A DNA stretch of 64,000 nt, from the NCBI GenBank assembly GCA_026388335.1, contig JAPLJZ010000247.1, forward strand, positions 1,233 through 65,232. The letters are read 5' to 3'. Positions 33,946 through 48,015 of this stretch are shown here, piece after piece (the first letter of the stretch is position 1; each line of letters starts with the position of its first letter). Under the pieces are notes generated by a model. The model was given only the letters and a program-made list of their open reading frames with translations. It was not told the origin of the DNA and did no database searches. The translations under genes were made by a program, and so were the position numbers. The stretch is from Deltaproteobacteria bacterium. Its GTDB lineage: Bacteria > Desulfobacterota > Syntrophia > Syntrophales > UBA8958.

Positions 33946-34530
33946 TTAAGCGCCTTCCTGCATCAATTTACATTCTGTCTCAGAAATAGAATACATGCGC
34001 CTGCATGTACAGGACACTACACTAACTGAACCATCACTACTCGGCAACTTCAACCCGCAGACACACATCCATCCTTTTGACCGTGCAGGATTGCCGTGAA
34101 CCAGCGCATGGGCCGTCACCATTCTTGTCACCACCGCGCCTGCGCCGACCGAGGCATATCGCCCGATTTTCACGCCGGGGGCGATGATCGCCCCCGCACC
34201 AATACTGACGCCATCTTCAATAATAATGGGTTCATAGGTCTTGGGATAACCGCTCCGCGGGTACCGCTCATTCGAGAACACCGCATGCGGCCCCAAAAAA
34301 ACATCATTGCCGATCATGGTTCCTTCCCAAAGGGAGATACCGTTTTTCACCACCACCCGGTCACCGATCTTCACCCCGTTTTCGATGAAGCAGTGCTCGC
34401 CGACATTGCACGACGCACCGATGGAAACCTGTTCTTGGACATGGCTCCAGCCCCAAATCCTGGTACCCTCGCCAATACTGCGTGTCTCAACAATAGCCAA
34501 GGGGTGGACAAAAAAGGGGTTCTCTGTCAT
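33946..34530 (-). CDS. left-handed beta-helix (hexapeptide) acyl/acetyltransferase with Cys-rich C-terminal tail
   Basis: Hexapeptide repeats (IGDRVVVKNGISLWEGTMIGNDVFLG..). C-terminal CVCG...SCTCRR. The first 38 codons of the track ORF are repeat-derived; Met at 34530 is the likely start. Confidence 0.8.
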   Translation of the reverse strand: MTENPFFVHPLAIVETRSIGEGTRIWGWSHVQEQVSIGASCNVGEHCFIENGVKIGDRVVVKNGISLWEGTMIGNDVFLGPHAVFSNERYPRSGYPKTYEPIIIEDGVSIGAGAIIAPGVKIGRYASVGAGAVVTRMVTAHALVHGNPARSKGWMCVCGLKLPSSDGSVSVVSCTCRRMYSISETECKLMQEGA

Positions 34531-34536
34531 CAAGAA

Positions 34537-34574
34537 ACACCCCCACCCTCCCCCTGCAATGGGGAGGGAAATGG
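34537..34574. repeat. family-B GC-hairpin repeat in the short gap between two genes
   Basis: ACACCCCCACCCTCCCCCTGCAATGGGGAGGGAAATGG. Confidence 0.75.
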
Positions 34575-34615
34575 AAGGACATTCTCCCTTGCTGGGAGTG
34601 AATTTAAAAGAGTTG

Positions 34616-35590
34616 TCATTGTTTGAACTGCAACACTGATTCAAATAGTTCCATGACTTTCAGCATGAAGCCGCCATCCGTCAATGGCCGCTGCCTTTCG
34701 CGGATACACATGATAAAATGATCCACCACATTGGCCAAGGGCTCGCCCGCACCATGCGGCAAGGCAGTTTCTGTCTTCTCTTCAAACTTGAAAAGGGTCA
34801 ACTTTTTCTCCGGATCAAGGTCATCGAAGATGAGCTGCTGCCGGCCATCGGCAATCAACAATTCACGACGGCGCTCCGGTAGTGTCCAACTCAAACCAAC
34901 ATGGATCGGAAAGCGCTGCGATTCCAATCTGATCATGGCCGTATCGCAACACGTCCCGGATATGCCATACAAGCGATGCACGGCAACCGGCGCAAAAACC
35001 TCATTAGGGAACAGGTATGTCAGGATGGCCGCATCATGGAAGAACAGATCCCGGATCACATCCGTTCCCTGATCCAACATGGTCGTCCTGAGTCTGGCGA
35101 TATTATGCATCCGCAGGTCATTACCGTAACGCAGGGATTGGATAAACCCAATCTCCGGAAAAAGTTCCTTATCCAATAAATGCCTGATCTCACGGACAGG
35201 ATCGCTATAGACAAATGTTGAATCCATCATAAATACAAAATGATCCCGATCTGCCATCTCCACAAGTATTTCCAGCTCTGTCAAAGTCTGCGTCGGCGGC
35301 TTGGTCATAAGGACGTGTTTGCCTGCCGCAAATGCCGCCTTCGCCAACTCAAAATGGGTCGGCGGCGGCGTGGCGATTACTACACCCACCACATCTGGCA
35401 TCTCCAGAACGCGCGAGGGATCTTCATACAAGACCACATTTGGGTAGCTCTTCATCTCTTCCCGCCGCGCCGCCCAGGGATCACAACCAGAAATCTTTGA
35501 TACTTGAGGATTTGCCGATAAATTGCGCAACAGCTTCGATCCCCACCAGCCAAGGCCTAAAACCGCAATATGCAGCATATCTCCCCTCAT
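34616..35590 (-). CDS. Gfo/Idh/MocA-family oxidoreductase
   Basis: IAVLGLGWWGSKLLRNL Rossmann N-terminus and LMTKPP (EKP-like). Confidence 0.7.
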   Translation of the reverse strand: MRGDMLHIAVLGLGWWGSKLLRNLSANPQVSKISGCDPWAARREEMKSYPNVVLYEDPSRVLEMPDVVGVVIATPPPTHFELAKAAFAAGKHVLMTKPPTQTLTELEILVEMADRDHFVFMMDSTFVYSDPVREIRHLLDKELFPEIGFIQSLRYGNDLRMHNIARLRTTMLDQGTDVIRDLFFHDAAILTYLFPNEVFAPVAVHRLYGISGTCCDTAMIRLESQRFPIHVGLSWTLPERRRELLIADGRQQLIFDDLDPEKKLTLFKFEEKTETALPHGAGEPLANVVDHFIMCIRERQRPLTDGGFMLKVMELFESVLQFKQ

Positions 35591-37050
35591 GAAATTCTGC
35601 TCCCATCGCCAAAGATGACCACAGGAATGGTTCGCAACATGATTTCCAGATCAAGCAACAGAGACCAGTTCTGAATGTAATAAAGATCCAGGGCGACCAT
35701 GTCGTCATAAGAAACGTCGCTTCTCGCCCGAACCTGCCACAAACCCGTTATCCCCGGCTTCATTTGAAAACGTCTTTTTTGCCAGGGTTTATAGAAACTT
35801 AATTCCGTCACGGAACAGAAACGGGGACCCACCAAACTCATTTCGCCCCTGAATACGTTGATCAACTGAGGCAACTCATCCAATGAATACTTGCGCAAAA
35901 AACGGCCCACTTTGGTAATCCTGCATTCGTTTTCCACGAAGTATGCGTCCTTTACCCGCCCCTGGATAAAATCCTGCATAAACTCAAGATGCCTCTTTTT
36001 ACCTTCTTCATACGCTTGCTTCTCTTCCGGCGAGGGACTATTTTCAGGAATCATGCTGCGGAATTTGTAAGTGAGAAAAACCTTTTCCCCTTTGCCGACA
36101 ACCGTCGGCCGATAAAAAACAGGACCTCGAGATTCGCTTTTGATAGCCCAGATAATGGCGCAAAAAACCGGGCTTACCAATAAGAGGGCCAAGGCAGAAC
36201 ACAAGAGGTCTATCATTCGTTTTATGCCAGCGCGGACAATGCCGTGCTGGCGGGATTCGATGCGATATGTGATCAGCCCGCCAAAGGCCTCTGCTTCCAG
36301 TTTCTCAGTCACGTGCGAAAAAAGGTTCGATATGACATGAATCACCAAATCGGCTTCCTTGCACCGTTCGATCAACGCGACCAGATCCCCCCGGTTAATA
36401 TTGCTGATGGCAATGATCACCTCCTGGATTTTTGCTTGCACCTTCAATTGGGGTATATCGGAGCTAGAACCCAGTACCGGAAACCCGAAGGCATATGTAC
36501 CCAGTAAATTGGGGTTGTCATCGCAAAACCCGACAATCTCAAAGTAATTCTCATGGCTTTGCCGCAGATGATCCAGCACCTGTTGGCCATGCTCACCGGC
36601 GCCCATGATGAGTGCCCGCTTCTTGATGATCCCCTTGTCAACAAAATAATAGAAAACCAGAGGAACCGTCAGGACACGCGCAAGGATCATGAATGTGAAA
36701 CTGAAAAGGAAACCAAGGCCGATGGTCAGGCGGCTGTCGGCAATGTACGCAGTCTTCATAAAGAAAACGAGCAGGATAAATGCCGCCAAAACCCGGAAAT
36801 AACATTTCAACAGCGACTGCACCTGATGGACAGGATTTGCAATGGCCTGATACTTGTACAGCCCGTTCAACTGAAACACGACCAGAAAGATCACCGTGAG
36901 CACGATGATGGAGGGGATGAAATAAGGCGGATATGCACGCGCAGATCCATAGAGACCGGAGTCAAAAACGTACCAGAAGGACAGGGAAAAACCGGCCACC
37001 AGCAGGGTGATGTCCAAAAGGGCTAATGAGATTTTATGTTTAGAAATCAT
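35587..37050 (-). CDS. polyprenyl-phosphate hexose-1-phosphate transferase (WbaP/EpsB-type priming enzyme)
   Basis: 4-5 N-terminal TM helices, a central Rossmann-like domain, and a C-terminal Bac_transf domain (KRMIDLLCSALALLLVSPVF...SLVGPR...PGITGLWQV). Confidence 0.9.
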   Translation of the reverse strand: MISKHKISLALLDITLLVAGFSLSFWYVFDSGLYGSARAYPPYFIPSIIVLTVIFLVVFQLNGLYKYQAIANPVHQVQSLLKCYFRVLAAFILLVFFMKTAYIADSRLTIGLGFLFSFTFMILARVLTVPLVFYYFVDKGIIKKRALIMGAGEHGQQVLDHLRQSHENYFEIVGFCDDNPNLLGTYAFGFPVLGSSSDIPQLKVQAKIQEVIIAISNINRGDLVALIERCKEADLVIHVISNLFSHVTEKLEAEAFGGLITYRIESRQHGIVRAGIKRMIDLLCSALALLLVSPVFCAIIWAIKSESRGPVFYRPTVVGKGEKVFLTYKFRSMIPENSPSPEEKQAYEEGKKRHLEFMQDFIQGRVKDAYFVENECRITKVGRFLRKYSLDELPQLINVFRGEMSLVGPRFCSVTELSFYKPWQKRRFQMKPGITGLWQVRARSDVSYDDMVALDLYYIQNWSLLLDLEIMLRTIPVVIFGDGSRIS

Positions 37051-37086: not shown

Positions 37087-38685
37087 TCATCCCGCCGCGG
37101 CATAGAAGTCCTTGATTTGATCCGCAACATACCGGATCTGTCTTTCATCAAGTTCCGGGTACATGGGCAGGGAGAGAATCCTTTTCGCCCCGGCTTCCGC
37201 AATCGGAAAATCACCGGTTTTATATCCCAGGTGCTGATAGGCAAGTTGGAGATGCAAAGGCGTCGGATAGTGCAGCCCCGTCGCGATGCCCTTTTCCAGA
37301 AGGTATTTCTGCAAAGCCTCACGCCTGACTGCCTGAATTACAAACAGGTGATAGACGCTGTAAACATTTTCTCTTTCCGTCGGGACCTGCACCTCCTCAA
37401 CATCTTTCAGGAATTCGCGATATAAAGCGGCATTGACCCGGCGTTTCTCCGTCCATTCCGCCAGATATTTCGCCTTCACGGAAAGCACCGCTCCCTGGAA
37501 GGCCTCCATCCGGTAATTATGACCGATCACCTGATGCTGATAACGCTGTATTTCCCCGTGCTGTCGGATCATCCTGGCCTTTTCATATAGTCCATCATCA
37601 TTGGTGATCAATGCCCCCGCCTCGCCATAAGCCCCCAAGTTCTTACCGGGGAAAAAACTGAAGGCGCCAAAAGCCCCAAAGTTCCCAACCGGTTTCTCTT
37701 GATATCGCGCCAAATGCGCCTGGCAGCAGTCTTCCACAATCGTTAAACCATACTGATCAGCCAATGCGCCGACGGCCTCCATATTAGCCGGCTGCCCGTA
37801 GAGATGCACAGGAATAATCGCCTTAATTTGAATATTCCCGCCCCCTTGACGGGGGAGGTCTGGGTGGGGGTGAAAATGGGGATGCCCTTCCATTAATTCC
37901 CTCACCTTCTCAACATCAACATTATAGTATTCATCGCAATCCACAAAAACCGGCGTAGCTCCGCAAAGCGACACCGCCTCGGCAGTAGCGATAAACGTAT
38001 TCACCGGCAGGATCACCCCATCGCCAGGTCCAATCCCCGAAGCCAGCAGGGCGATATGCAAGGCGTCCGTCCCGCTGGAGAGACCGATGCAATGCTTCGC
38101 CCCCTGCATCGCGGCGAATGCACCTTCAAATTCCTCCACATACTTCCCCAGGATAAAGGCCGTATTGGCAATAACATCCGTGAGTTTGTCATCAATTTCG
38201 TTATATGTTCGATGATGCTGCGCCTTCAGGTCGACAAATGGAACAGATGAAACCAAAGGATTGTTATTCGTCTCCTTGAAAAGCGAGACAAATTCGGCAG
38301 GTGTGAAAGCCGGCACAGGAGAACCCTGAAAATGCCTTGTGTTGCGGGTGATGATGTAATCCAGATTGAACTGGCTGGCCGCTGCCATCTTCATGTTGTC
38401 TTCAAAATCCGGAGATAACGACGCATTGGCCTCCGTGAGGGTAGATTTCCGGACCGGTAGGACGGAAAGTGAGCGCAGGTTCGTGAATATCTTGTTCCGC
38501 GCGACAAGTTCATCAAATTCCTTTTTCAGGTAGTAGTGCACCGTCGAATAAGAATCCGCGCTCAACCACCCTTCCACCTTATTCAAGGCGCAGAGATTCA
38601 GGACTGCAAAGCTGTCGAGATAAAACTCACGCCGGGGAAGCAGAATATCCAGAACCACATTGATATCGAGAAGTATCCTGATCAT
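37087..38685 (-). CDS. in-frame fusion of a PIN-domain toxin-like module (~150 aa) to a DegT/DnrJ/EryC1 sugar aminotransferase
   Basis: N-terminus MIRILLDINVVLDILL...DFEDNM...IITRNTRHF (PIN). From VPFVDLKAQ onward it is DegT-like (GLSSGTDALHIAL, SFFPGKNLGAYGEAG). The ATG at 38685 forms an ATGA overlap with the stop of the upstream DUF104 gene. Confidence 0.8.
   Translation of the reverse strand: MIRILLDINVVLDILLPRREFYLDSFAVLNLCALNKVEGWLSADSYSTVHYYLKKEFDELVARNKIFTNLRSLSVLPVRKSTLTEANASLSPDFEDNMKMAAASQFNLDYIITRNTRHFQGSPVPAFTPAEFVSLFKETNNNPLVSSVPFVDLKAQHHRTYNEIDDKLTDVIANTAFILGKYVEEFEGAFAAMQGAKHCIGLSSGTDALHIALLASGIGPGDGVILPVNTFIATAEAVSLCGATPVFVDCDEYYNVDVEKVRELMEGHPHFHPHPDLPRQGGGNIQIKAIIPVHLYGQPANMEAVGALADQYGLTIVEDCCQAHLARYQEKPVGNFGAFGAFSFFPGKNLGAYGEAGALITNDDGLYEKARMIRQHGEIQRYQHQVIGHNYRMEAFQGAVLSVKAKYLAEWTEKRRVNAALYREFLKDVEEVQVPTERENVYSVYHLFVIQAVRREALQKYLLEKGIATGLHYPTPLHLQLAYQHLGYKTGDFPIAEAGAKRILSLPMYPELDERQIRYVADQIKDFYAAAG
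37837..37882. repeat. family-B GC-hairpin repeat inserted in frame in the aminotransferase
   Basis: CCCGCCCCCTTGACGGGGGAGGTCTGGGTGGGGGTGAAAATGGGGA, read as HPHFHPHPDLPRQGGG. Confidence 0.8.
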
Positions 38686-38969
38686 CGATGCTTCCTCCAC
38701 AGGTGCTCCCGGTAGGCCTCCCTGTCGTATTTTCCCGGTGGCTGTCTCAGAATGCCCACCAATTCCAAAATATCCTTGCTGACTTCCATCCCCGGAAAAT
38801 TCTTCTGAAAATAGCTTCTGGCCTCCCCCTGATAAAGATTCACATGCTCCTCGGATGTGTGGGGTTTTTCATCACTGATCACAACAACGGCATCGGAATC
38901 CCCGTCCAGTTGCAATGGCTCGACAGGAACGAATACGCCATCTTTGTATTTTACTGAAATAACCTGCAT
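38682..38969 (-). CDS. DUF104 (AF2212-like) antitoxin-type protein, C-terminally extended
   Basis: MQVISVKYKDGVFVPVEPLQLDG..AVVVI is the DUF104 signature. Translationally coupled to the PIN fusion. Confidence 0.6.
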   Translation of the reverse strand: MQVISVKYKDGVFVPVEPLQLDGDSDAVVVISDEKPHTSEEHVNLYQGEARSYFQKNFPGMEVSKDILELVGILRQPPGKYDREAYREHLWRKHR

Positions 38970-38996
38970 TGTTAAAAACCTCCTTTACTAATTATG

Positions 38997-39480
38997 CTAA
39001 TTCCCCAAGAACATTTCCGCTACTTCTTCGACGAGATCTTTTGATTTCATCAAAGAGGTACCACCCCGGTACTTCTTCTTTAAGCGAATCAGGGGAATTT
39101 TCTCCATTTCATCCAAACGAACCATCCGGCCCCTTTCGATCAGGTGGCGATCAACGGCGGCCAATTTACCTTTGAACAGGGAATAAGTGGGGGTTCCCAG
39201 CACCGCCGCTTCCCGGTTCATGCTCCCAACAAAGCAATCCGGATTCGATACGACGTGTTCAAGGGCGGCTTCAAACAGGGGGTTCTCAAAATGATGATAC
39301 AAAGCCCGTGTGGCAGGAAGCCTCATAACAGCAAGAATTTTCCCCGGCGATATCTTGAGCCTGGAAAGGTAATCTTCAACGGGCGCAAAGTCCGCCAGAT
39401 AAATCTCTTCATTCGTTCCCTAATTTCTTACCGCCATGCTCACCGGTCGGCACATGCTTCGTGCGAAAAAGATTGATGAA
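38997..39480 (-). pseudogene. DUF354-family gene remnant, copy 1 (about the last 160 codons, frameshifted upstream)
   Basis: EEIYLADFAPVEDYLSRLKISPGKILAVMRLPATRALYHH...GSMNREAAVLGTPTYSLFKGKLAAVDRHLIE... No N-terminal half. Frame break near 39400. Confidence 0.55.
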
Positions 39481-39482
39481 CT

Positions 39483-40328
39483 TCATTCGCCCAATCCTTT
39501 CAGCAGCATGCGAACAAATCCCACTACATCCGCTTGGATATCATCATCGGGAGCTCCATGTATAAACTCAGAAACTCTTCGGGGGCCAAGGCCATCCTGG
39601 TTTAGAAAGTCACGCTTAAGAATATCAATGGTTTTTCTGGTTTCAGAGTCCTTAAGCAGGGGCCGAAGCCTGTCAACAACGTCCCCTATCCCGGCCCCAT
39701 AATTGCGAAGCACATAAAAAAGATCATAGGCATCCTTGTTTTCCCCGCGGCCATCGAACGCAAGGGTTTTCAGGACAGTATAAGCCCCGGGACCACAAAC
39801 CCATATCCTACGTGAGGCCTCCTCACCGATAATGGTTTTGCCTGAGAGCGTGATCTGTTGCCGGTCAATGAAAGCCAGTCGAAGACCGGGGGTGACAATG
39901 GCCGCAAAATCGGACTGAATGTGTTTCAACCTGCCGCCCTGATCTCTGTCGTCCGACGGAGGGATGAGAAAGTCCACCGTAACATGTCCGAAGTCCTTGA
40001 TCTTCCATCGTTGATTCGTCAAACGCCCTTCTTCATTTGTATCCGGGACGAACCCGGCCCGCCGGAGGCGTTCCGCAAGGGCTTCGTACCGTTTCTCATC
40101 AAAGATCGCCAGGCTCAAGCCGACATCCAGATCCATCGTACCCACATGAGTATCGGTCTCCGGAGAAAGGGTTGACTGGTCGATGATGAGTGAAGGAACA
40201 AGCCCGCCCACCACCACAAGCTCATCCATCAGGTCGCCCAGCTTCGTTGCTATAAAAAGACAAACAGCCCGAACAAGAGCCACCTGTTTCGGAACATAAT
40301 CGGATGCCCGTGTCGGTTTAGCGATCAC
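39483..40328 (-). CDS. nucleotidyltransferase-fold protein (AbiEii/MNT-like toxin candidate)
   Basis: LVVVGGLVPSLII...THVGTMDLDVGLSL fits the hG[GS]-x(n)-DxD NTase pattern. 11-bp overlap with the upstream wHTH gene. Confidence 0.45.
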   Translation of the reverse strand: MIAKPTRASDYVPKQVALVRAVCLFIATKLGDLMDELVVVGGLVPSLIIDQSTLSPETDTHVGTMDLDVGLSLAIFDEKRYEALAERLRRAGFVPDTNEEGRLTNQRWKIKDFGHVTVDFLIPPSDDRDQGGRLKHIQSDFAAIVTPGLRLAFIDRQQITLSGKTIIGEEASRRIWVCGPGAYTVLKTLAFDGRGENKDAYDLFYVLRNYGAGIGDVVDRLRPLLKDSETRKTIDILKRDFLNQDGLGPRRVSEFIHGAPDDDIQADVVGFVRMLLKGLGE

Positions 40329-41373
40329 TCGTCCTCCAGTTCAGGAAATCTTTACGGAGTTTTTCGGCAGCCTCTGCGGACCTTTCCGGATGATCCTTGA
40401 GATCGAGGTAAACCTGAACCGGATGAACGCAACGGATGCCTGCGACTTCACCGGCGCCATGAAATACCCCCTCGTCCTTGGGTTCAATCAGCCATACGTT
40501 GCCACCCCGAGGTTCCTCTTGAAAGCCGATCTCTGCCAACCAGGACGGCGACGGAGCCTCATTCAGGTAAATGCTTGCAGTGCGATATGCCGCAAAATGG
40601 GTGTAGAGCCAGGCCGCACCAAGGCCGGTGGCGGCATATGCGATCCCTCGATTTTGACAGTCGGCCGCCAACCGCTGTAACGCCTCTTCGCCGGTTCGCG
40701 CCGCTATATGACCTCGTATCCATGCATGCGCCTGTATTCGGTACATCTCCCTCCATGATTCCATGAGCGCTGCGGGATCCTGCACCAGCAAATTTCCCGA
40801 CTTATCGCGCCGGATCAAACCTTCATTTACCATTCGGGAGACGATCCGGCTTACAAAGCCCTCGTCCATGCCGACGGTCCGGGCCAATTCCCGCTGGGGG
40901 AAAGACTTTCCCGGATGGATGAGGAGCCAGCGGGCGATCCGCGAGCTTTTAGGTGCAAATATATCGGCCGGCCGGCCTCTGACATTGAAGCGGTTGGGAC
41001 GTCCTTCGACACGGACATGAAGTCCCGAACCCATGATCCGTCCGTTGCCGGAAAGGTCGAACCAGCCGATGCCGGCCTCTTCACAGACGGTGCGTCCGGC
41101 TGAACCCATAAAAGGGACGCAAATGACAGGCACGGCTTGTACGTCTATAGGAAGCGACAGCTTCCGGTGTTGCTCGATCGCCGTTTTCATAGGGATAATC
41201 GAACTGGACGACTTGTACACCACGACAAATAGTTTACCCAACGCCTGAAGAGCCAGATCCACGCCGGGAATCGGTTGGGCAGCAAGGACGGCATCAGGCT
41301 CGATGCCCAAAAGCTCGGAAAATACCTGGGTTGCGCCGGCTAACCAATTATTATGTTTACTTTTGTCACTCAT
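40318..41373 (-). CDS. winged-HTH regulator with AbiEi-like C-terminal domain and an extra N-terminal domain
   Basis: SFPQRELARTVGMDEGFVSRIVSRMVNEGLIRRD (MarR-like wHTH). The C-terminal VQVYLDLKDHPERSAEAAEKL resembles AbiEi antitoxins. Confidence 0.45.
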   Translation of the reverse strand: MSDKSKHNNWLAGATQVFSELLGIEPDAVLAAQPIPGVDLALQALGKLFVVVYKSSSSIIPMKTAIEQHRKLSLPIDVQAVPVICVPFMGSAGRTVCEEAGIGWFDLSGNGRIMGSGLHVRVEGRPNRFNVRGRPADIFAPKSSRIARWLLIHPGKSFPQRELARTVGMDEGFVSRIVSRMVNEGLIRRDKSGNLLVQDPAALMESWREMYRIQAHAWIRGHIAARTGEEALQRLAADCQNRGIAYAATGLGAAWLYTHFAAYRTASIYLNEAPSPSWLAEIGFQEEPRGGNVWLIEPKDEGVFHGAGEVAGIRCVHPVQVYLDLKDHPERSAEAAEKLRKDFLNWRTSDR

Positions 41374-41381
41374 GCTTGACT

Positions 41382-41401
41382 AAATAAGGCAACTTGATCG
41401 A
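41382..41401 (-). promoter_or_regulatory. palindrome ACTTGA-N8-TCAAGT just upstream of the wHTH gene (possible operator)
   Basis: Arms at 41382-41387 and 41396-41401. The centre contains GATCGATC. Confidence 0.25.
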
Positions 41402-41447
41402 TCAGTCAAGTGAAATAATTTACTCATATCTCTCCGTTTATTCCTCC

Positions 41448-41649
41448 AAAAACATTCCCGCTACCTCTTCGACAAGATCTTTTGATTTCATCAGCGAGGA
41501 GTCACCCCGGTCCTTCTTCTTCAGGCGAATCAAGGGAATTTTCTCCATTTCATCCAAATGAACCATCCGGCCCTTTTCGATCAGGTGGCGATCAACGGCG
41601 GCTAATTTACCTTTAAACAGGGAATAAGTCGGCGTTCCCAGGACCGCCG
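41448..41649 (-). pseudogene. DUF354 remnant, copy 2 (last ~66 codons)
   Basis: Reads AAVLGTPTYSLFKGKLAAVDRHLIEKGRMVHLDEMEKIPLIRLKKKDRGDSSLMKSKDLVEEVAGMFLEE*. DNA is ~85-90 percent identical by eye to copies 1 and 3. Confidence 0.6.
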
Positions 41650-41738
41650 CCTCCAGTTCAGGAAATCTTTACGGAGTTGTTCGGCAGCCTCCGCAGACCT
41701 TTCCGGATGATCCTTGAGATCGAGGTAAATCTGAACCG
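41650..41738 (-). pseudogene. duplicated 3-prime end of the AbiEi-like gene fused to DUF354 copy 2
   Basis: The 89 bp match 40333-40421 with about 5 mismatches. Reads VQIYLDLKDHPERSAEAAEQLRKDFLNW in its own frame. Confidence 0.7.
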
Positions 41739-41756
41739 TGCATTAAGTTTTGTGTC

Positions 41757-41803
41757 CCCATATTCCCCCCCCATATTCCCCCGGCCTTCGCTGGGATGAC
41801 AGG
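41757..41803. repeat. tandem CCCATATTCCCCC x2 followed by a family-C-like core (ATTCCCCCGGCCTTCGCTGGGATGACAGG)
   Basis: Direct reading. Compare GGATTCCTGCCTTCGCCGGAATGACGA at 13593-13619. Confidence 0.6.
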
Positions 41804-41816
41804 AAAGTGTAGATTT

Positions 41817-42245
41817 TCAAAGGTCCCTCTGGCGGAAGGCGGCGGCGGTCATGATGGGGATATTACGGAAACTGCCGAGAGTGAGGAGATCTTTGTCTCC
41901 GCTTATGATGCAATCGGCGCTTGCGGCCACGGCGCAGGACAGGAATGGATCATCCGCCGGATCCCGGCACACGCTAAGGATCGCTTCCCCAATCTCGACT
42001 ACTTCGCAAAAAGGCAGTACCTCGTCTTCGATGAGGGCGGCGATTTCCTGAATCGTCAGAGAAAATTTCGGATATGAGAGGACCCTCCTAAACTCGTCAA
42101 AGGTTTCGCGCGAAAAAACCGGAACAAATGCGCCGGATTTCCAACCTTCGACGATCCATCCCAGCTCTCCGGAAAAAAGCAGCGCGGAAACAAGGACATT
42201 CGTGTCCAGAACGACCCGGATCACGTCTCTTTCTTTCTCGCCCAA
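41817..42245 (-). CDS. PIN-domain toxin (TIGR00305-like)
   Basis: IRVVLDTNVLVSALLFSG...CAVAASADCIISGDKDLL. Confidence 0.8.
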   Translation of the reverse strand: MGEKERDVIRVVLDTNVLVSALLFSGELGWIVEGWKSGAFVPVFSRETFDEFRRVLSYPKFSLTIQEIAALIEDEVLPFCEVVEIGEAILSVCRDPADDPFLSCAVAASADCIISGDKDLLTLGSFRNIPIMTAAAFRQRDL

Positions 42246-42460
42246 CGGATTGCGTCGGTCACCTCGTCCGGCGTTATCCCGAGTTTCTCCATCTTCTTAC
42301 GGATCCCATCCAGATTGGCGCCCAAGGGCTGCATTCTTACGGGCGCCAGGAGGATACGCCCATCTGCCACGGCGACATCGAAATACGTGATCCCCTGGAA
42401 CTCTTTAACAATGTCCCGTGGTAGCGTAAGCTGATTTTTTGTGGTGAGTTTGGCAAGCAT
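42221..42460 (-). CDS. AbrB/SpoVT-family antitoxin
   Basis: MLAKLTTKNQLTLPRDIVKEF (SpoVT-AbrB swapped-hairpin motif). Overlaps the PIN gene by 25 bp. Confidence 0.75.
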   Translation of the reverse strand: MLAKLTTKNQLTLPRDIVKEFQGITYFDVAVADGRILLAPVRMQPLGANLDGIRKKMEKLGITPDEVTDAIRWARKKET

Positions 42461-42612
42461 TCCTTACCTCCTTACAACAAGGATACATTCCATTCGAACA
42501 TCCGTCAAGAAAAAACACGCAAGCTGTCAAGAACAAGCGAGGAAGTGTCTCATTTACATTGGTACATGAGGGAGGGTGAATAAAGAGGTTTCTGTCCCTA
42601 TTTTCTCCAATT

Positions 42613-43011
42613 TTATCGCCAGTCTTCCAGATGCAGGTCAACAACTCTTTCAAATTCTTTGGTGTTGTTAGTCACCAATATCATGTCTCGTGATCGGGCA
42701 AGACCTGCTATTAGAAGATCATAAGGTCCAATTGATATTCCTTTCTTTTCAAGTTGTGCACGAATGGCTGCGGCTTCAATCGCAGCGGAACGATCCAGGT
42801 CAATAATGTTCAATGGCAGAAGGAATTTGTCAAGAGCATCCTCGGAACGTTGCCTGAATTGACTTTTTTCAACCCCGTATTGAAGCTCAAAGAGGGTGAT
42901 TGTGGAAATTGCAACATCCTGTGGTGAATGTTCCCGGAATCGCTCAAGAATCTCTGGTGAGTGTTTTTTGATGAGATAGATGCAAATATTGGTATCAAAC
43001 AGATAGCGCAT
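42613..43011 (-). CDS. vapC: VapC-type PIN ribonuclease toxin
   Basis: MRYLFDTNICIYLIKK...LVTNNTKEFERV. Abuts vapB with a 1-nt coordinate overlap at 43011 (ORF-track coordinates). Confidence 0.9.
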   Translation of the reverse strand: MRYLFDTNICIYLIKKHSPEILERFREHSPQDVAISTITLFELQYGVEKSQFRQRSEDALDKFLLPLNIIDLDRSAAIEAAAIRAQLEKKGISIGPYDLLIAGLARSRDMILVTNNTKEFERVVDLHLEDWR

Positions 43012-43241
43012 CAGAAGGATTCTCTTTTCTGCATGTCTGGTTGATTACGCCCGTCTTTCATGAAATCTTCCGGAAATTCACTGAGCGATTCAAACAACGG
43101 GTCCCATGTCGTTTCTATGGGCTCCAGAATAACATGATTGCCTTTCCTAAATATTTTTACCTCATTTCCGGGAATTCTGAATTCCTTGGGCAGCCTTACT
43201 GCTTGAGAACTCCCATTCTGAAACAACTTTGCTGTATCCAT
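43011..43241 (-). CDS. vapB: VapB antitoxin (AbrB/MazE fold)
   Basis: MDTAKLFQNGSSQAVRLPKEFRIPGNEVKIFRKGNHVILEP. Confidence 0.85.
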   Translation of the reverse strand: MDTAKLFQNGSSQAVRLPKEFRIPGNEVKIFRKGNHVILEPIETTWDPLFESLSEFPEDFMKDGRNQPDMQKRESF

Positions 43242-43245
43242 TTTA

Positions 43246-43572
43246 TCACCTCTCTATTTCGTATATATTTTTAGTATATACACCAATGATCGTAAAATCA
43301 AGGAACATTTCCGCGACTTCTTCGACAAGATCTTTTGATTTCATCAATGAGGAACCATTCTGATCCTTCTTCTTCAGGAGAACCAGGGGAATTTTCTCCA
43401 TTTCATCCAAATGAACCATCCGGCCCTTTTCGATCAGGTGGCGATCAACGGCGGCCAATTTTCCTTTGAACAGGGAATAAGTGGGGGTTCCCAGCACCAC
43501 TGCTTCCCTGTTCATGCTCCCGCCACCGCTGATTAAGAGCCCCGCGTGGTACATGGGATTGGGTCTGTCCAA
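43246..43572 (-). pseudogene. DUF354 remnant, copy 3 (last ~100 codons), abutting the AT-rich cassette
   Basis: HAGLLISGGGSMNREAVVLGTPTYSLFKGKLAAVDRHLIEKGRMVHLDEMEKIPL... Only 18 bp separate it from the stop of the upstream GT4 gene. No N-terminal half is present. Confidence 0.6.
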
Positions 43573-44725: not shown

Positions 44726-47173
44726 TCAAGGCTGTTTAAACATTGATAGAACAAATTCAAGATTCGTTGATAAAGCACGTGAAGATCCATACAATAAGGG
44801 ATTAGACACCCAATCAGGTGAACCTGCAAATTTATCGACGGCAATTTTCGTTTTCATCATTTCTTGTGTTATATTCTCAATCTGACGGACATTTTGCTGT
44901 GAACCAAGTTTTTTCATAAGAGCCGCTAGTGACAATTTCGTTTCTTCTTTTCCGACAACCTTTGCGGCAGCGTTCAGGTCGCGCAAGACTGTCTCAATAC
45001 TTGTTACGGTTCTTTCAATATGCTCTTTAATAATTGCATCCAAAGATCCTATTTGTATAATTGTCACATCGCCTGCTGATAAAAATACGTCTTTTAACTG
45101 AATCTGTGTTTCTGAGACCGATAATTTCAGAAATGTGTGTCCCAGAACATCAACAGCGTAGACAGGCCGAGAACCGACTCTTATTTTTCTTGCATCAACA
45201 AATAAGTCAAAATTAGTTCTGTCCTTCCCACTATTTAAACAAGTAAACCGTAAGGTATTATTCTCTCCATAGCCAAATCGCTCAACGAAAACGTCAGGTT
45301 TCGAGGAAACAGCATAAGTCAAAGGCTCCCAGCCTGCCCGGGAGGTTTGAACAATTGGCTGTAAATAGTCCCGAAAGAGCTGTTGATCTCTCTTCTGCAT
45401 ATCAGACTTGTAAAATTCATAACGTTGCCAATCGTCACCTTTCTTCTCGGCGCCGCCATTCATCGCAGGATAAAAACCGTAAAAAAGCGAGCGCCCTAAG
45501 TATTGCTTAACCATGTCGTGGTTGAATTTCTGAATTCCCGTCATGAGAAGCAAATATGGTTTCTTATACGAAAAAGCCCGCCGAAAAGAGAGCCGTGAAT
45601 CTGGCTCCGGTGTCATCTGATTTGGCGCTGTCGCCCACCAGACCTCGGTTCCGGGTATATCAATCAAGTGATTATAAAATCCAAAACTTGCCCGCATGGC
45701 GCCATTACACATTGTTAGCAAACCAGCATGAGAAATTGAGGTGTTTAGCCAAGAAAGATATTCATAGTTAGTTAATAAATTGAAAATCGCCACTTTCTTG
45801 TTCTTGCTCGAGAAGGTAAGCGGAAAATCAGTGAACTTGAAATGGTCGCGCCGAAAATTTAGGTAATTACCCGTATATTCAGGAGAACCATCGATATAAA
45901 TACCGTCGTATTTGGCAACATTTTTTAAATATTCATTCGCAGAATACCTGGCCGCGTTAATCCCCTTAGAATTTACCGTCGGCAATTCCGGGGCACAATT
46001 CAGTGGGAACCAGCCACCGTAACTCCAAGATTCGTCCTTAAAAGAGCCTATCACGCGCCCACTCTCATCATGTAATGCGCTTGAAAGGGTGGCGCCATTT
46101 TTATGAGGCCCTGGTTTATTGCCCGTCTCTTTTAAATAGGACAATACATCATCGTAACTATATTTCTTTCCCTTTGGCATATGCAGCCAGAAATCCCATG
46201 GTTCATCATAATAAAAGCTTTTGATGTCGTTCTGCCTATCGAATTCCAATGCCTTCGCGTCAACCGGCTGTTCGTGAAAACCAATTTGAAAATCTTCCCA
46301 GTTAGGAATATCCTCTATTCTGCCAAAATTCTTCCAGATGCCTTCTTTCTTGACACGTTTTTCAAACCATTGAGGGTACATTTCATAGTATTTTTTCAAA
46401 GCCGAACGCATACCCCAAGCAGGTTCATCAATTTTATAAAGTATGAATCTGATTTTTACCGTAGATGGAATCTTGGAATCTTTCGTGAGACCAATATCAT
46501 AACGAATGATCAACTGCTTTGATTGGCTATCATAGATCAAACGATACACAGCGGGGCTATCCATTGGTAGGCCAAGCGCTAATCCTACTTGATCGTTTGA
46601 AATCGCTGACCAGCAGTATCGTGCCATTTTTCCAGACTCGCCTGCAGGAACAGTGACGCTCTCTTCATAAATCTTTCCAGCTTCAATCTTACGCTTTTCC
46701 CTAAGATGGTCATACCAATACCATCCGAGCGCATCGATGGGCAAGGCAAACCCAACTGCCAGCGACCGATCCAATTTTGACAGGGATGTTAACGTCAAAT
46801 CGAACATAATTTTCTTGGCATCGGTTCGGATTTGGGCAAGAAGGTTAAGTTGAAGCGCTGGGCTACTGGCTACAAAGACCGCATCTGTTTTTGAACCTTC
46901 CATTTTGCCTCTGAACCATTTTGTTTCACTGCCACTTGCTATATCCTTGGCATAGAACCCACCGATACCTTTGACCTGCGAGCCCTTGTCATCAAAGTCA
47001 GTGCGACTTACGTTTCCATTTTCATCAAATTGGATCGATAGACCGTCACCGGTTTGTATCTTAATCGCGGCGAAACAAACACCCGCACAAAAAAAGAATA
47101 TGAAGACACTAAAAAGAAGAATACGAAGTTCTTTGTGATTTTTAAAAACGCGATAAATAGAAATAGTATGCAT
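44726..47173 (-). CDS. large (815 aa) N-terminally anchored hypothetical protein
   Basis: ATG at 47173 behind AGGTGG. TM/signal segment LRILLFSVFIFFFCAGVCFAA. Trp/Tyr-rich body (possible glycan-binding or hydrolase-like) with no motif I can name. Confidence 0.5.
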   Translation of the reverse strand: MHTISIYRVFKNHKELRILLFSVFIFFFCAGVCFAAIKIQTGDGLSIQFDENGNVSRTDFDDKGSQVKGIGGFYAKDIASGSETKWFRGKMEGSKTDAVFVASSPALQLNLLAQIRTDAKKIMFDLTLTSLSKLDRSLAVGFALPIDALGWYWYDHLREKRKIEAGKIYEESVTVPAGESGKMARYCWSAISNDQVGLALGLPMDSPAVYRLIYDSQSKQLIIRYDIGLTKDSKIPSTVKIRFILYKIDEPAWGMRSALKKYYEMYPQWFEKRVKKEGIWKNFGRIEDIPNWEDFQIGFHEQPVDAKALEFDRQNDIKSFYYDEPWDFWLHMPKGKKYSYDDVLSYLKETGNKPGPHKNGATLSSALHDESGRVIGSFKDESWSYGGWFPLNCAPELPTVNSKGINAARYSANEYLKNVAKYDGIYIDGSPEYTGNYLNFRRDHFKFTDFPLTFSSKNKKVAIFNLLTNYEYLSWLNTSISHAGLLTMCNGAMRASFGFYNHLIDIPGTEVWWATAPNQMTPEPDSRLSFRRAFSYKKPYLLLMTGIQKFNHDMVKQYLGRSLFYGFYPAMNGGAEKKGDDWQRYEFYKSDMQKRDQQLFRDYLQPIVQTSRAGWEPLTYAVSSKPDVFVERFGYGENNTLRFTCLNSGKDRTNFDLFVDARKIRVGSRPVYAVDVLGHTFLKLSVSETQIQLKDVFLSAGDVTIIQIGSLDAIIKEHIERTVTSIETVLRDLNAAAKVVGKEETKLSLAALMKKLGSQQNVRQIENITQEMMKTKIAVDKFAGSPDWVSNPLLYGSSRALSTNLEFVLSMFKQP

Positions 47174-47175
47174 AT

Positions 47176-48015
47176 TTATCCACCTAAGCCCCATAGTCGC
47201 CTCAGTTTCTTGCGCAGTGGGATCAGTTTTTCATCCCAGAGAAAAGATTCTGGCAAAGAGTGTATTAAACGGTCGATGATATACCTTGTGTATAGCCCTG
47301 CATATATTTTATGGCTGTGTTTATAACTTATAGTTAATGTTTCATGCCACATTTTCCAGCGGCTGTTTTGGCTTTTAGAATTCTGATGCACCCTGAAGGC
47401 GGCCAAGAATTGGTCTATGAAACGCAATGGATAGCACTTGGCAACCTTAATACAAAAGTCGTAATCAGCAGCGTATTTATATGCTGTGTCAAAAAAACCA
47501 ATGTTCTTCAAGGCAGATCTCCGTACAAGCATGGCCCCGGTAAAAATATTGTTTCCATGTCTAATTAGCCGATCATAGTCAGTTAGCCCAGCCCGCAAAT
47601 GATCAACGGGAATACCTTGTTCGGAGAGCCTAACACTACCCCCGTAGGCGAGAGCGCTCTCAGGATGTGCGTTTAATTCACCTACAAGCGTTGAGATTGC
47701 ACCAGGATATAACACATCATCTGCATTAAGGTATCCCAGATAATCACCCTTGGCGTTATGCCACCCTTTGTTGACAGCATCATAAAGGCCTTGATCTGGT
47801 TCGCAAATCCAACCAATTCTTCCTGAATAATCACGCAATATATCCAACGTATCATCGGTGGAGCCACCATCCAGGACAGTATATTCTACCATAGGATAGT
47901 CCTGGGCTAACACACTATCAATGGCTGCGCGGATATATGCACCATGGTTTAGAGATGGTGTTACTATCGAAACCGTGCAAGATGCCGTTGTGGTCGCTTT
48001 ACTAAGTAGAGTCAT
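47176..48015 (-). CDS. GT2 glycosyltransferase
   Basis: VSIVTPSLNHGAYIRAAIDSVLAQDYP...VLDGGSTDDT...LNADD. Confidence 0.85.
   Translation of the reverse strand: MTLLSKATTTASCTVSIVTPSLNHGAYIRAAIDSVLAQDYPMVEYTVLDGGSTDDTLDILRDYSGRIGWICEPDQGLYDAVNKGWHNAKGDYLGYLNADDVLYPGAISTLVGELNAHPESALAYGGSVRLSEQGIPVDHLRAGLTDYDRLIRHGNNIFTGAMLVRRSALKNIGFFDTAYKYAADYDFCIKVAKCYPLRFIDQFLAAFRVHQNSKSQNSRWKMWHETLTISYKHSHKIYAGLYTRYIIDRLIHSLPESFLWDEKLIPLRKKLRRLWGLGG

What the first reader, a model, noticed from the sequence alone, without database searches (positions are those of the whole stretch)
37087..38969. DUF104 antitoxin translationally coupled (ATGA) to a PIN domain fused in frame to the locus DegT aminotransferase
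A 95-aa DUF104-type protein ends in an ATGA overlap with an ORF. That ORF's first ~150 residues form a PIN domain (LLDINVV..., DFEDNM, IITRNTRHF) and it continues without a stop into a full DegT/DnrJ/EryC1 aminotransferase (VPFVDLKAQ... to the end).

I could find no Met or separate RBS at the aminotransferase boundary. The last PIN acidic position appears to be Asn/Thr (TRNTRHF), so the nuclease may be inactive.

Either a TA module inserted upstream and captured the aminotransferase, or the enzyme is made only as a PIN fusion. The latter would be an unusual way to tie an addiction or regulatory module to a sugar-tailoring step.
Basis: partly seen in the sequence, partly recalled or inferred. 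Interest (0 to 1): 0.55.

Follow-up and report, generated by a model that had tools for sequence, protein, structure and literature searches.

The report
Toxin domain fused to sugar aminotransferase
A toxin-type nuclease domain (PIN) really is fused to a sugar-modifying enzyme in a polysaccharide operon; more than 100 related bacteria carry the same fusion, and the small antitoxin-like gene in front of it survives only where the nuclease site is still intact.

Summary
A 95-aa AF2212/DUF104-like gene (38682-38969) overlaps by ATGA a 532-aa ORF (37087-38685). That ORF is a PIN_3 domain joined to a complete DegT sugar aminotransferase.

It is not a one-off. At least 106 diverged proteins (50-80% identity, mostly Desulfobacterota MAGs) have the same architecture, in the same operon: partner, PIN-DegT, acetyltransferase, phosphoglycosyl transferase, GFO oxidoreductase. 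There is no conserved internal start. Ka/Ks is 0.12 for PIN, 0.13 for DegT and 0.12 for the partner.

It keeps every residue that is invariant in 70 stand-alone toxin relatives (D7, D13, D93, E95, D96, T113).

Across 31 non-redundant fused loci, the partner is present in 18 of 19 with E95/D96 intact and in 0 of 12 where they are altered (p = 9e-8). Partner divergence tracks PIN divergence (r = 0.92), not DegT divergence (r = 0.20).

My best reading is a live toxin-antitoxin pair whose toxin is covalently part of the enzyme. The PIN domain is kept even after the nuclease decays, so it probably also has a structural role. Toxicity and neutralisation are inferred, not shown. I found no paper describing this fusion. 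I rate it a new variant of a known kind.

The parts
38979..38985 (-). Shine-Dalgarno AAGGAGG of the partner gene, 9 nt before its ATG
   Evidence: Read directly from the sequence.
38682..38969 (-). Partner gene, 95 aa. The N-terminus is an AF2212/DUF104-like beta domain. The C-terminus is helical and carries a conserved FPGME..ILELVGIL motif. It is the putative antitoxin.
   Evidence: Pfam PF01954 at 22.4 bits against a cut-off of 21.6. 20 close homologues, one of which JGI names 'predicted DNA-binding antitoxin AbrB/MazE fold protein'. An iterative HMM links it to the 103-117-aa genes in front of other fusions. Ka/Ks is 0.12 against L001. The AF2 model is poor (pLDDT 63): four N-terminal strands and three helices.
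38682..38685 (-). ATGA overlap: the partner's stop TGA and the fusion's start ATG (translational coupling)
   Evidence: The overlap is also 4 nt in L001, L007 and L008, and 17 nt in L003, L006, L012 and L016.
38272..38685 (-). PIN_3 (VapC-like) domain, residues 1-138 of the fusion. The signature residues D7, D13, R18, Y51, D93, E95, D96 and T113 are all intact. The fusion-specific residues W40, P77, R79 and P129 are present.
   Evidence: Pfam E 8e-16. Residue comparison with 70 stand-alone and 85 fused PINs. AF2 gives an alpha/beta/alpha fold with pLDDT above 90. Ka/Ks 0.12.
38245..38271 (-). Linker, residues 139-147 (TNNNPLVSS). Variable in the family.
   Evidence: Column frequencies. Ka/Ks about 1.4 over codons 136-147, which is noisy. 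pLDDT 80-90.
38254..38256 (-). In-frame TTG (codon 144), used as the start in the public 389-aa annotation. AAGGAG at 38272-38277 lies 15 nt upstream.
   Evidence: The start is not conserved: at this column the family has K22, E11, T10 and others. No common start codon in 15 loci. L001 keeps AAGGAG, where it encodes Lys-Glu, but has no TTG there.
37087..38244 (-). DegT/DnrJ/EryC1 PLP-dependent nucleotide-sugar aminotransferase domain (residues 148-532) plus the stop codon. Most like C3-aminotransferases.
   Evidence: Pfam E 5e-111. Closest PDB entries are 7b0d, QdtB 3frk, DesV 2oga and WbpE 3nu7, with TM 0.94-0.96 normalised to the target. D319, Q322 and K348 (FPGKNLG) are invariant in 85 fusions.
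35587..37050 (-). Downstream operon gene: polyprenyl glycosylphosphotransferase (CoA_binding_3 plus Bac_transf)
   Evidence: Pfam and TIGR03025, 372 bits. The same neighbour is present in the other fused loci.
34616..35590 (-). Downstream GFO/IDH/MocA oxidoreductase, the likely sugar 3-dehydrogenase that supplies the keto-sugar
   Evidence: Pfam. Conserved neighbour in the related loci.
33946..34644 (-). Hexapeptide-repeat acyltransferase, the likely N-acetyltransferase of the amino sugar
   Evidence: Pfam. Conserved neighbour in the related loci.

Best explanation
The 95-aa gene and the 532-aa gene form a conserved two-gene module embedded in an exopolysaccharide operon.

The long gene encodes one polypeptide. 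Its N-terminus is a VapC-like PIN_3 nuclease domain. This is joined, apparently rigidly, to a complete PLP-dependent nucleotide-sugar 3-aminotransferase. That enzyme works with the neighbouring GFO-type dehydrogenase, hexapeptide acetyltransferase and phosphoglycosyl transferase to make and load an acetamido sugar.

The fusion descends from a PIN toxin/antitoxin cassette that became joined to the aminotransferase, probably once. All fused PINs share W40, P77, R79 and P129, which the free toxins lack.

In this member the PIN active site is intact. The small AF2212/AbrB-like protein made just before it, by translational coupling, most likely binds the PIN domain and masks the nuclease, i.e. it acts as its antitoxin. 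In lineages where the active site decayed, the partner gene was lost. The PIN domain itself was kept, so it has probably also taken on a structural role in the enzyme.

Shown here:
- the architecture and its conservation;
- purifying selection on all three parts;
- the intact catalytic signature in this member;
- the link between partner presence and an intact active site;
- co-divergence of partner and PIN.

Inferred:
- nuclease activity, toxicity and neutralisation by the partner;
- the C3 specificity of the enzyme;
- any physiological role, such as stabilising the operon or coupling growth arrest to polysaccharide synthesis.
For: 1. Architecture: Pfam PIN_3 plus DegT in one ORF, with the ATGA overlap.

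2. Family: 106 of the 120 best homologues have a full PIN plus DegT, at 50-80% identity. Fused loci were recovered independently from a genome scan (L007, L008, L012, L016, L027) and from a metagenome scan (25 loci).

3. Selection: Ka/Ks between the window and L001 is 0.12 for PIN, 0.13 for DegT and 0.12 for the partner.

4. No conserved internal start.

5. TA ancestry: about 70 stand-alone PIN relatives, each about 140 aa, sit directly behind a coupled antitoxin gene of a known family. PIN plus COG2880/DUF104 is a predicted TA pair (PMC2701414).

6. Active site: stand-alone PINs have D7, D13, D93, E95 and D96 in 70 of 70 and T113 in 69 of 70. The window has all of them.

7. Correlation: in 31 non-redundant fused loci, those with E95/D96 intact have the partner in 18 of 19. 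Those with E95/D96 altered have it in 0 of 12 (Fisher p = 9e-8). Partner-less members are scattered over the NJ tree, so the losses were repeated.

8. Partner identity tracks PIN identity (r = 0.92), not DegT identity (r = 0.20), over 105 pairs.

9. Structural integration: W40 is present in 85 of 85 fused PINs, P129 in 85, P77 in 84 and R79 in 80, including the degenerate members. Among free PINs W40 is 0 of 70 and R79 is not among the listed residues (D18, G15, T8, S6). The AF2 model of the whole fusion has pLDDT 92.8 and pTM 0.91.

10. Enzyme: the closest solved structures are sugar C3-aminotransferases, and the conserved neighbours are a GFO oxidoreductase, a hexapeptide transferase and a Bac_transf protein.
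Against: - No experiment. Nuclease activity, toxicity and partner binding are all inferred.
- The AF2212-like assignment of the partner is marginal (22.4 against 21.6 bits). It has no PDB sequence match and its model is poor.
- The pair has no intergenic room for its own promoter: only 27 nt separate it from the DUF354 fragment upstream. No promoter-like site was found above chance. It does not look like an autonomous, autoregulated TA cassette.
- The correlation has exceptions. L108 (D93E) lacks the partner. L008 (D93N) and L105 (D7G) keep it.
- The loci are phylogenetically related, so the Fisher p-value overstates independence.
- The window has Q99K, where 66 of 70 free toxins have Q.
- Rigid docking of PIN on DegT rests on pTM alone. 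I could not inspect coordinates or PAE.
- An extra internal-start product from the TTG cannot be excluded for this particular gene.
Confidence: 0.6

Rival explanations
1. The PIN domain is a non-nuclease structural or regulatory appendage of the aminotransferase in all members, including this one. The small upstream protein is an accessory subunit or regulator of the enzyme or operon, not an antitoxin.
For: Nearly half of the fusions (47 of 85) have at least one substitution in the six-residue signature, yet they keep the domain and the fusion-specific residues W40, P77, R79 and P129. pTM of 0.91 suggests a fixed two-domain body. The pair has no promoter region of its own. The window carries Q99K.
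Against: This does not explain why the partner is present in 18 of 19 loci with E95/D96 intact and in 0 of 12 where they are altered, with losses scattered over the tree. It also does not explain why the full acidic signature is kept under Ka/Ks 0.12 in the partner-bearing lineage.
Confidence: 0.2
2. In this genome the enzyme is made, solely or additionally, from the internal TTG at 38254-38256 as a 389-aa stand-alone DegT, as the public annotation has it. The upstream PIN reading frame would then be a separate or decaying toxin gene that happens to lack a stop.
For: The TTG sits five codons before PFVDL, exactly where stand-alone orthologues start (P0060 'MSVPFLDL', P0094, P0108). An AAGGAG lies upstream. 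P0002 is annotated this way. Some relatives carry only partial PIN remnants (7 of 120).
Against: AAGGAG is 15 nt from the TTG, whereas the partner's own SD is 9 nt from its ATG. In L001 the same AAGGAG encodes Lys-Glu and there is no TTG. The PIN part has Ka/Ks 0.12 and an intact signature, so it is not decaying. Without a stop codon, ribosomes translating PIN must continue into DegT, so the fusion is made in any case.
Confidence: 0.12
3. The in-frame junction is an assembly or sequencing artefact, or a recent accidental stop-codon loss peculiar to this MAG.
For: The window comes from a metagenome-assembled genome. The public annotation did not call the fusion.
Against: The same fusion is seen in more than 100 diverged proteins from independent assemblies in JGI, ENA, NCBI and Logan, and in 40 or more loci read as DNA.
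Confidence: 0.02

Closest known systems
VapBC-type type II toxin-antitoxin pairs, specifically PIN toxin plus COG2880/DUF104 (AF2212-like, AbrB superfamily) antitoxin (Makarova et al. 2009, PMC2701414; PIN_3 classed as TA toxins in Matelska et al. 2017, PMC5499597)
   Same: The antitoxin-like gene comes first and overlaps the PIN gene. The PIN carries the acidic signature of its free toxin relatives. The partner has a beta-rich N-terminus and a helical C-terminus. Partner and PIN co-diverge. The partner is lost when the active site is lost.
   Different: The toxin is not a small free protein. It is the N-terminal domain of a 532-aa metabolic enzyme. The pair sits inside a biosynthetic operon with no visible promoter or operator of its own. 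The PIN domain persists after inactivation.
Nucleotide-sugar C3-aminotransferases of the DegT/DnrJ/EryC1 family (WbpE, QdtB, DesV; PDB 3nu7, 3frk, 2oga, 7b0d)
   Same: 36-44% identity and TM 0.94-0.96 over the whole enzyme domain. The PLP motif is conserved. The neighbouring genes (GFO oxidoreductase, hexapeptide acetyltransferase) match a WbpB/WbpE/WbpD-like route. The pathway analogy is from my own knowledge.
   Different: None of the solved enzymes has an N-terminal PIN domain. All PDB matches cover only about 380 of the 532 residues. Substrate and regiochemistry were not tested.
PhoH2 / PhoAT (a PIN domain fused to a PhoH ATPase, preceded by a small antitoxin-like gene, in mycobacteria). 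Recalled from memory, not checked here; Matelska 2017 does list PIN_4 fused with PhoH.
   Same: A VapC-like PIN domain is covalently coupled to a second enzymatic domain and is preceded by a small coupled gene.
   Different: There the fused partner domain acts on RNA (helicase/ATPase), so the two halves share a substrate. Here the second half is a sugar aminotransferase with no known link to nucleic acids.
NtdA / KabA-type sugar aminotransferases with an extra N-terminal domain (PDB 4k2b, 7kz3)
   Same: The DegT-family core is extended at the N-terminus (fold matches at ranks 36-49).
   Different: The aligned region is still essentially the core (TMq 0.62-0.64). No PIN_3 or TA ancestry is indicated, and no coupled small partner is known to me.

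Membership tests
PIN_3 (PF13470) / VapC-like PIN nucleases | Sequence match to the family model above the curated cut-off | tested here: met
   59.3 bits against a cut-off of 27, covering profile positions 1-115 of 115.
PIN_3 (PF13470) / VapC-like PIN nucleases | Conserved acidic active-site residues | tested here: met
   D7, D13, D93, E95, D96 and T113 are invariant or nearly so in 70 stand-alone relatives, and all are present in the window protein. The only deviation is Q99K.
PIN_3 (PF13470) / VapC-like PIN nucleases | Three-layer alpha/beta/alpha PIN fold | tested here: met
   The AF2 model has alternating strands and helices over residues 1-138 with pLDDT mostly above 90. No fold search was run on the PIN part alone.
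PIN_3 (PF13470) / VapC-like PIN nucleases | Metal-dependent ribonuclease activity | not testable with these tools
   Needs an in vitro RNase assay.
Type II toxin-antitoxin system (VapBC-like, PIN + COG2880/DUF104) | Adjacent, co-directional, coupled antitoxin and toxin genes | tested here: met
   ATGA overlap in the window. 4-nt or 17-nt overlaps in the other fused loci.
Type II toxin-antitoxin system (VapBC-like, PIN + COG2880/DUF104) | Antitoxin belongs to a recognised antitoxin family (AF2212-like / AbrB superfamily) | tested here: inconclusive
   PF01954 at 22.4 bits against a cut-off of 21.6. The family is also on record for 6 of 20 homologues, and JGI names one an AbrB/MazE-fold antitoxin. 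Against this, there is no PDB sequence hit and the AF2 model has pLDDT 63.
Type II toxin-antitoxin system (VapBC-like, PIN + COG2880/DUF104) | Toxin is a small stand-alone protein | tested here: not met
   The PIN is residues 1-138 of a 532-aa enzyme with no stop codon in between.
Type II toxin-antitoxin system (VapBC-like, PIN + COG2880/DUF104) | Own promoter/operator autoregulated by the antitoxin | tested here: inconclusive
   Only 27 nt separate the partner from the upstream ORF. 2 promoter-like sites were found against 2.6 expected by chance.
Type II toxin-antitoxin system (VapBC-like, PIN + COG2880/DUF104) | Toxin harmful and neutralised by the cognate antitoxin | not testable with these tools
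   Indirect support only. The partner is retained in 18 of 19 loci with E95/D96 intact and in 0 of 12 where they are altered. Partner-PIN co-divergence has r = 0.92.
DegT/DnrJ/EryC1/StrS sugar aminotransferases (PF01041) | Full-length match to the family model | tested here: met
   371.9 bits, covering profile positions 5-359 of 360.
DegT/DnrJ/EryC1/StrS sugar aminotransferases (PF01041) | PLP-binding Lys and Asp motifs retained | tested here: met
   D319, Q322 and K348 (FSFFPGKNLG) are invariant in 85 fusions. Equating K348 with the Schiff-base lysine is from my knowledge of WbpE/QdtB.
DegT/DnrJ/EryC1/StrS sugar aminotransferases (PF01041) | Fold type I aminotransferase structure | tested here: met
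   Foldseek TM 0.94-0.96 (normalised to the target) to 7b0d, QdtB, WbpE and DesV.
DegT/DnrJ/EryC1/StrS sugar aminotransferases (PF01041) | Specific equivalog (PseC, LegC, WecE, ArnB, DesI and others) | tested here: not met
   All NCBIfam equivalog scores are far below their cut-offs. The best is PseC at 245 against 423.5.

The most novel reading that the evidence does not exclude
The fusion is a functional coupling device, not a frozen accident. An active VapC-like nuclease is physically built into the enzyme that supplies the amino sugar for the exopolysaccharide repeat unit. Loss, silencing or imbalance of the operon, or the state of the enzyme itself, would then release a growth-arresting RNase. 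In effect, a toxin-antitoxin system would be recruited to enforce or time the production of a costly public good. The partner/PIN cassettes would be swapped between lineages like immunity pairs: PIN is 31% identical on DegT bodies that are 83% identical.
Probability: 0.15. Interest if true: 0.8.

Novelty: new variant of a known kind. Interest (0 to 1): 0.62.

Why it matters
Toxin-antitoxin toxins are almost always small free proteins, and what they do on chromosomes is a long-running argument. Here a toxin domain has been part of a housekeeping biosynthetic enzyme across more than 100 lineages. Those lineages form a natural series:

- intact active site with antitoxin;
- mildly altered site, mostly still with the partner;
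- dead site without antitoxin;
- truncated PIN remnants;
- no PIN at all.

This makes two questions directly testable. First, is an antitoxin kept only as long as its toxin can still kill? Second, how does a toxin domain become domesticated as a structural part of another enzyme?

There is also a practical point for annotation. Public pipelines either cut the PIN part off (the 389-aa call for this very gene) or label the fusion simply as an aminotransferase.

Tried and rejected
- An exact-sequence look-up of the 537-aa ORF and of the NCBI 389-aa protein found nothing on record. I therefore could not see how the public record annotates the PIN part or the partner.
- A PDB sequence search with the PIN part gave only a weak VapC hit (7by2, E 1.5). 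It was useful only for lining up the TRNT(K/R)(D/H)F motif.
- I first treated H118 as a lost fourth acidic residue. I rejected this after the stand-alone relatives proved variable at that position.
It worked with 8 sequences.
- The exhaustive search of the 50%-identity representative library with the PIN part returned almost only stand-alone PINs, with one fused protein (507 aa) among the best 150. It shows the free family is large (3673 hits at E <= 0.001) but was no use for counting fusions.
- A direct phmmer search with the 95-aa partner reached only type-i partners. Three rounds of a hand-made iterative HMM were needed to link the 115-117-aa partners. It never reached the antitoxins of the free PINs, which belong to other families.
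- The partner profile found nothing meaningful in the PDB. The AF2 model of the partner was too poor for a fold search.
- PADLOC gave no hit for the fusion or the partner.
- The promoter/terminator scan found no promoter-like sites above chance; the terminator-like matches (8 found, 3.3 expected) were not followed up.
- Five literature searches found no description of a PIN-DegT fusion.
- I considered independent fusions of different PINs as the source of the three PIN 'types'. I rejected this in favour of a single origin followed by recombination, because all types share W40, P77, R79 and P129, which free PINs lack.
Full report
**1. The observation**

The feature lies on the minus strand. A 95-aa ORF (38682-38969) starts with ATG, 9 nt after an AAGGAGG. 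Its TGA stop overlaps the ATG (38683-38685) of a long ORF that runs without a stop to 37087. The mechanical ORF list starts that ORF at a GTG at 38700 (537 aa). The coupled ATG gives 532 aa, beginning MIRILLDINVV.

Pfam places PIN_3 (PF13470, E 8e-16) on residues 8-122 of the 537-aa ORF. It places a full-length DegT_DnrJ_EryC1 domain (PF01041, E 5e-111) on residues 167-529. The small protein matches AF2212-like (PF01954, formerly DUF104) at 22.4 bits, just above the 21.6-bit cut-off.

One detail needs correcting. An in-frame TTG (38254-38256) lies five codons before the enzyme's PFVDL motif. An AAGGAG lies 15 nt upstream of it. The public protein identical to this gene (P0002, 389 aa, from a Deltaproteobacteria MAG) is annotated from that TTG, which leaves the PIN part out.

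**2. It is a conserved family, not an accident**

A homology search with the 532-aa protein returned a long list of 510-590-aa proteins covering 99-100% of the query at 50-80% identity. Of the best 120:
- 106 contain a full PIN domain in the same polypeptide;
- 7 contain a partial PIN remnant;
- 8 contain none, and one of those is the truncated public call for this very gene.

Named sources are Desulfobacterales, Desulfobacteraceae, Desulfosarcina and 'Deltaproteobacteria' MAGs. A genome scan adds Desulfonatronospira and a Coatesbacteria MAG.

In an alignment of 85 full-length fusions, the residue at the window's TTG position is K, E, T, R or Q in most members. In 15 fused loci read as DNA there is no common in-frame start near the junction. 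Five of them have no ATG, GTG or TTG at all in the 22 codons before PF(L/V/M)DL.

Between the window and its 80%-identical relative L001, Ka/Ks is 0.12 for PIN, 0.13 for DegT and 0.12 for the partner. Only the 12-codon linker looks unconstrained. The enzyme is therefore made as a PIN fusion, and the PIN part is under selection.

**3. Context**

The window is a large exopolysaccharide locus. It holds a Wzz/GNVR kinase, Poly_export, a Wzy-like polymerase and many glycosyltransferases.

Directly downstream of the fusion lie:
- a CoA_binding_3/Bac_transf phosphoglycosyl transferase (TIGR03025);
- a GFO/IDH/MocA oxidoreductase;
- a hexapeptide acyltransferase.

The same set surrounds the fusion in every related locus with enough flank, often followed by an exosortase EpsH/EpsI gene.

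The enzyme domain is closest in sequence and in predicted fold to sugar C3-aminotransferases: 7b0d, QdtB, DesV and WbpE. No NCBIfam equivalog reaches its cut-off. A WbpB/WbpE/WbpD-like dehydrogenase, aminotransferase and acetyltransferase route is a reasonable inference from the neighbours. The substrate was not tested.

**4. Where the PIN domain came from**

A genome-collection scan with the PIN part found about 70 stand-alone PIN proteins of roughly 140 aa, 26-45% identical to it, in many phyla. In nearly all of them a small upstream ORF ends 0, 3 or 16 nt past the PIN start. Those upstream proteins belong to known antitoxin families: DUF6364, Phd/YefM, HicB, CcdA and FitA-like RHH. An exhaustive search puts the free family at 3673 cluster representatives at E <= 0.001.

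The fused PIN is therefore a descendant of ordinary type II toxins. PIN plus COG2880/DUF104 is itself a predicted toxin-antitoxin pair (PMC2701414), and PIN_3 proteins are classed as TA toxins (PMC5499597).

**5. Is the nuclease site dead?**

In the 70 free relatives:
- D7, D13, D93, E95 and D96 are invariant (70 of 70);
- T113 (69), Y51 (66), Q99 (66) and R18 (62) are nearly so.

Position 115 is Asn in 41 and Asp in 28 of the free toxins. Position 118 is D, G or H.

The window protein has D7, D13, R18, Y51, D93, E95, D96 and T113. Only Q99 is changed, to K. By the standard of its own family the active site is intact.

Across the fusions conservation is relaxed. D96 is present in 60 of 85 and R18 in 27 of 85. 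The exact six-residue signature is present in 38 of 85.

Conversely the fusions have their own near-invariant residues: W40 (85 of 85), P129 (85), P77 (84) and R79 (80). Free PINs lack W40 (0 of 70) and do not show R at position 79.

AlphaFold2 with the 85-sequence alignment gives pLDDT 92.8 and pTM 0.91 for the whole two-domain chain. This suggests a fixed arrangement of the two domains, though I could not inspect the interface.

**6. The partner**

An iteratively built HMM shows that the small genes in front of the fusions form one family (95-117 aa). They have a beta-rich N-terminus and a conserved (K/N)(F/Y)P....(L/I)..(V/A)GI motif in a helical C-terminal half.

I combined three sources into 31 non-redundant (<95% identity) fused loci with enough upstream DNA: contig look-ups, the genome scan and a metagenome scan. 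The result:

| PIN active site | Partner present |
|---|---|
| E95 and D96 intact | 18 of 19 loci |
| E95 or D96 altered | 0 of 12 loci |
| Exact six-residue signature intact | 13 of 13 loci |

Fisher's exact test on the E95/D96 split gives p = 9e-8. The HMM finds nothing in the partner-less loci of the first set (L005, L087-L091) even at E <= 10; the second set was searched at E <= 0.01.

In a rough NJ tree the partner-less members are scattered among partner-bearing ones. L096 sits beside the L003/L012 group, L100 beside L006, and L108 beside L112-L114. This points to several independent losses.

There are exceptions. L108 (D93E) lacks the partner. L008 (D93N) and L105 (D7G) keep it. The loci are also related to one another, so the p-value is optimistic.

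Over 105 pairs, partner identity tracks PIN identity (r = 0.92) but not DegT identity (r = 0.20). PIN and DegT histories are themselves decoupled. P0009 is 82-84% identical to the window in DegT but 31% in PIN. P0006 changes from 33% (PIN) to 67% and then 89% along the gene. Partner and PIN therefore behave as one cassette that recombines onto related enzyme bodies.

**7. Interpretation**

The simplest account has four steps:
- A PIN/AF2212-like toxin-antitoxin cassette became fused to the operon's aminotransferase. This probably happened once, given the shared W40, P77, R79 and P129.
- Where the nuclease site is intact, as in this window, the partner is needed and retained. It most likely acts as a neutralising antitoxin made just ahead of the toxin by translational coupling.
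- Where the site decays, the partner is lost.
- The PIN domain persists because it has become part of the enzyme's structure.

Steps shown: architecture, conservation, selection, active-site status, the association with the partner and the co-divergence. Steps inferred: nuclease activity, toxicity, binding, C3 specificity and any physiological purpose.

Two facts argue against a fully autonomous TA cassette. There is essentially no intergenic space upstream (27 nt), and there is no promoter-like signal above chance.

The main rival is that PIN is purely structural and the partner is an accessory subunit. That fits the persistence of dead PINs but not the partner/active-site association. An extra product from the internal TTG cannot be excluded for this gene. 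It is not a family feature, and since there is no stop codon the fusion is made regardless.

**8. Comparison with what is known, and novelty**

The parts are known: PIN_3 toxins, DUF104/COG2880 antitoxins and DegT C3-aminotransferases. The fusion is present in databases. JGI labels some members 'dTDP-4-amino-4,6-dideoxygalactose transaminase/predicted nucleic acid-binding protein'.

No solved structure covers both domains. Five full-text searches found no description of the fusion. The large PIN survey does not list it.

The nearest analogy I know is PhoH2, a PIN domain fused to a PhoH ATPase with a small upstream gene. I recall this from memory. There both halves act on RNA.

As a type II TA system this module fails the 'small free toxin' criterion. 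Two criteria are inconclusive (antitoxin family membership and own promoter). Toxicity and neutralisation cannot be tested with these tools. So I file it as working like a VapBC pair, not as a plain member. I rate it a new variant of a known kind, with interest 0.62.

Noticed in passing
window 38997-43572 (minus strand): A toxin-antitoxin island lies immediately upstream of the finding. Three copies of a 219-nt piece are present (39009-39227, 41450-41668 at 85%, 43303-43521 at 91%). Each corresponds to the 3' end of a DUF354 gene (ORFs 38997-39326 and 43246-43572 match only profile positions ~269-342 of 349). Each copy is followed by TA-like genes. No full-length DUF354 gene is present, although related loci (L003, L004) have one at this place. 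This looks like repeated cassette insertion or duplication at one site.
   Followed up: partly
window 43011-43241 / 42613-43011; 42221-42460 / 41817-42245; 40318-41373 / 39483-40328 (all minus strand): Three further TA-like pairs sit in tandem. The first is an AbrB/MazE-like gene plus a canonical VapC ('LVTNNTKEF'). The second is an AbrB-like gene plus a canonical PIN_3 ('IISGDKDLL'). The third is an AbiEi-like regulator (PF09952) plus a 281-aa ORF with no Pfam hit. An 89-nt copy (96% identical) of the AbiEi gene's 3' end (40333-40421) is repeated at 41650-41738.
   Followed up: partly
L093 1653-3017 (Desulfobacterales MAG JACKQG010004504); also L012 690-974, L095 661-945, L106 114-452: Some relatives carry two or three tandem paralogues of the partner gene in front of the PIN-DegT fusion. 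L093 has three: 1653-1970, 2206-2523 and 2664-3017. Only the last overlaps the fusion's start.
   Followed up: partly
L027 1141-1606: In this Desulfobacteraceae MAG the partner gene is split between two reading frames (1141-1311 and 1304-1606), although the PIN signature is intact. This is either a frameshift, a sequencing error or early decay.
   Followed up: no
proteins P0006 and P0009 compared with window 37087-38685: Mosaic relationships. P0009 is 82-84% identical to the window in the DegT domain but 31% in PIN. P0006 is 33% in PIN, 67% in the first half of DegT and 89% in the second half. This points to recombination within these genes, with the partner-plus-PIN part exchanged as a unit.
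   Followed up: partly
window ~37825-37900 (residues ~262-288 of the fusion): There is a His/Pro-rich loop (HPHFHPHPDLPRQGGGN) inside the aminotransferase domain, with pLDDT below 50 at residues 276-282. The equivalent loop varies from 9 to 71 residues across the family.
   Followed up: partly
P0067, P0077, P0084, P0085, P0089, P0095, P0104 (homologues): These are aminotransferases of 417-484 aa whose N-termini are only the last 25-100 residues of the PIN domain. They may be stages of PIN erosion, or gene calls that start inside a frameshifted PIN. Their DNA was not examined.
   Followed up: no
L001 14290-17170, L006 14425-16200, L087 512-1179, L091 7690-9319: Related polysaccharide loci are also littered with other TA-like genes close to the fusion: ParE-like, MazE, HepT, PIN plus PrlF, and HipA plus HTH. 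In L091 a HipA pair sits between the fusion and the acetyltransferase.
   Followed up: no
window 44726-47194, 20472-23384, 49167-50543, 52887-54128, 55368-56561 (minus strand): Several long ORFs inside the polysaccharide locus (822, 970, 458, 413 and 397 aa) have no Pfam match at E <= 1e-4 or 1e-5.
   Followed up: no
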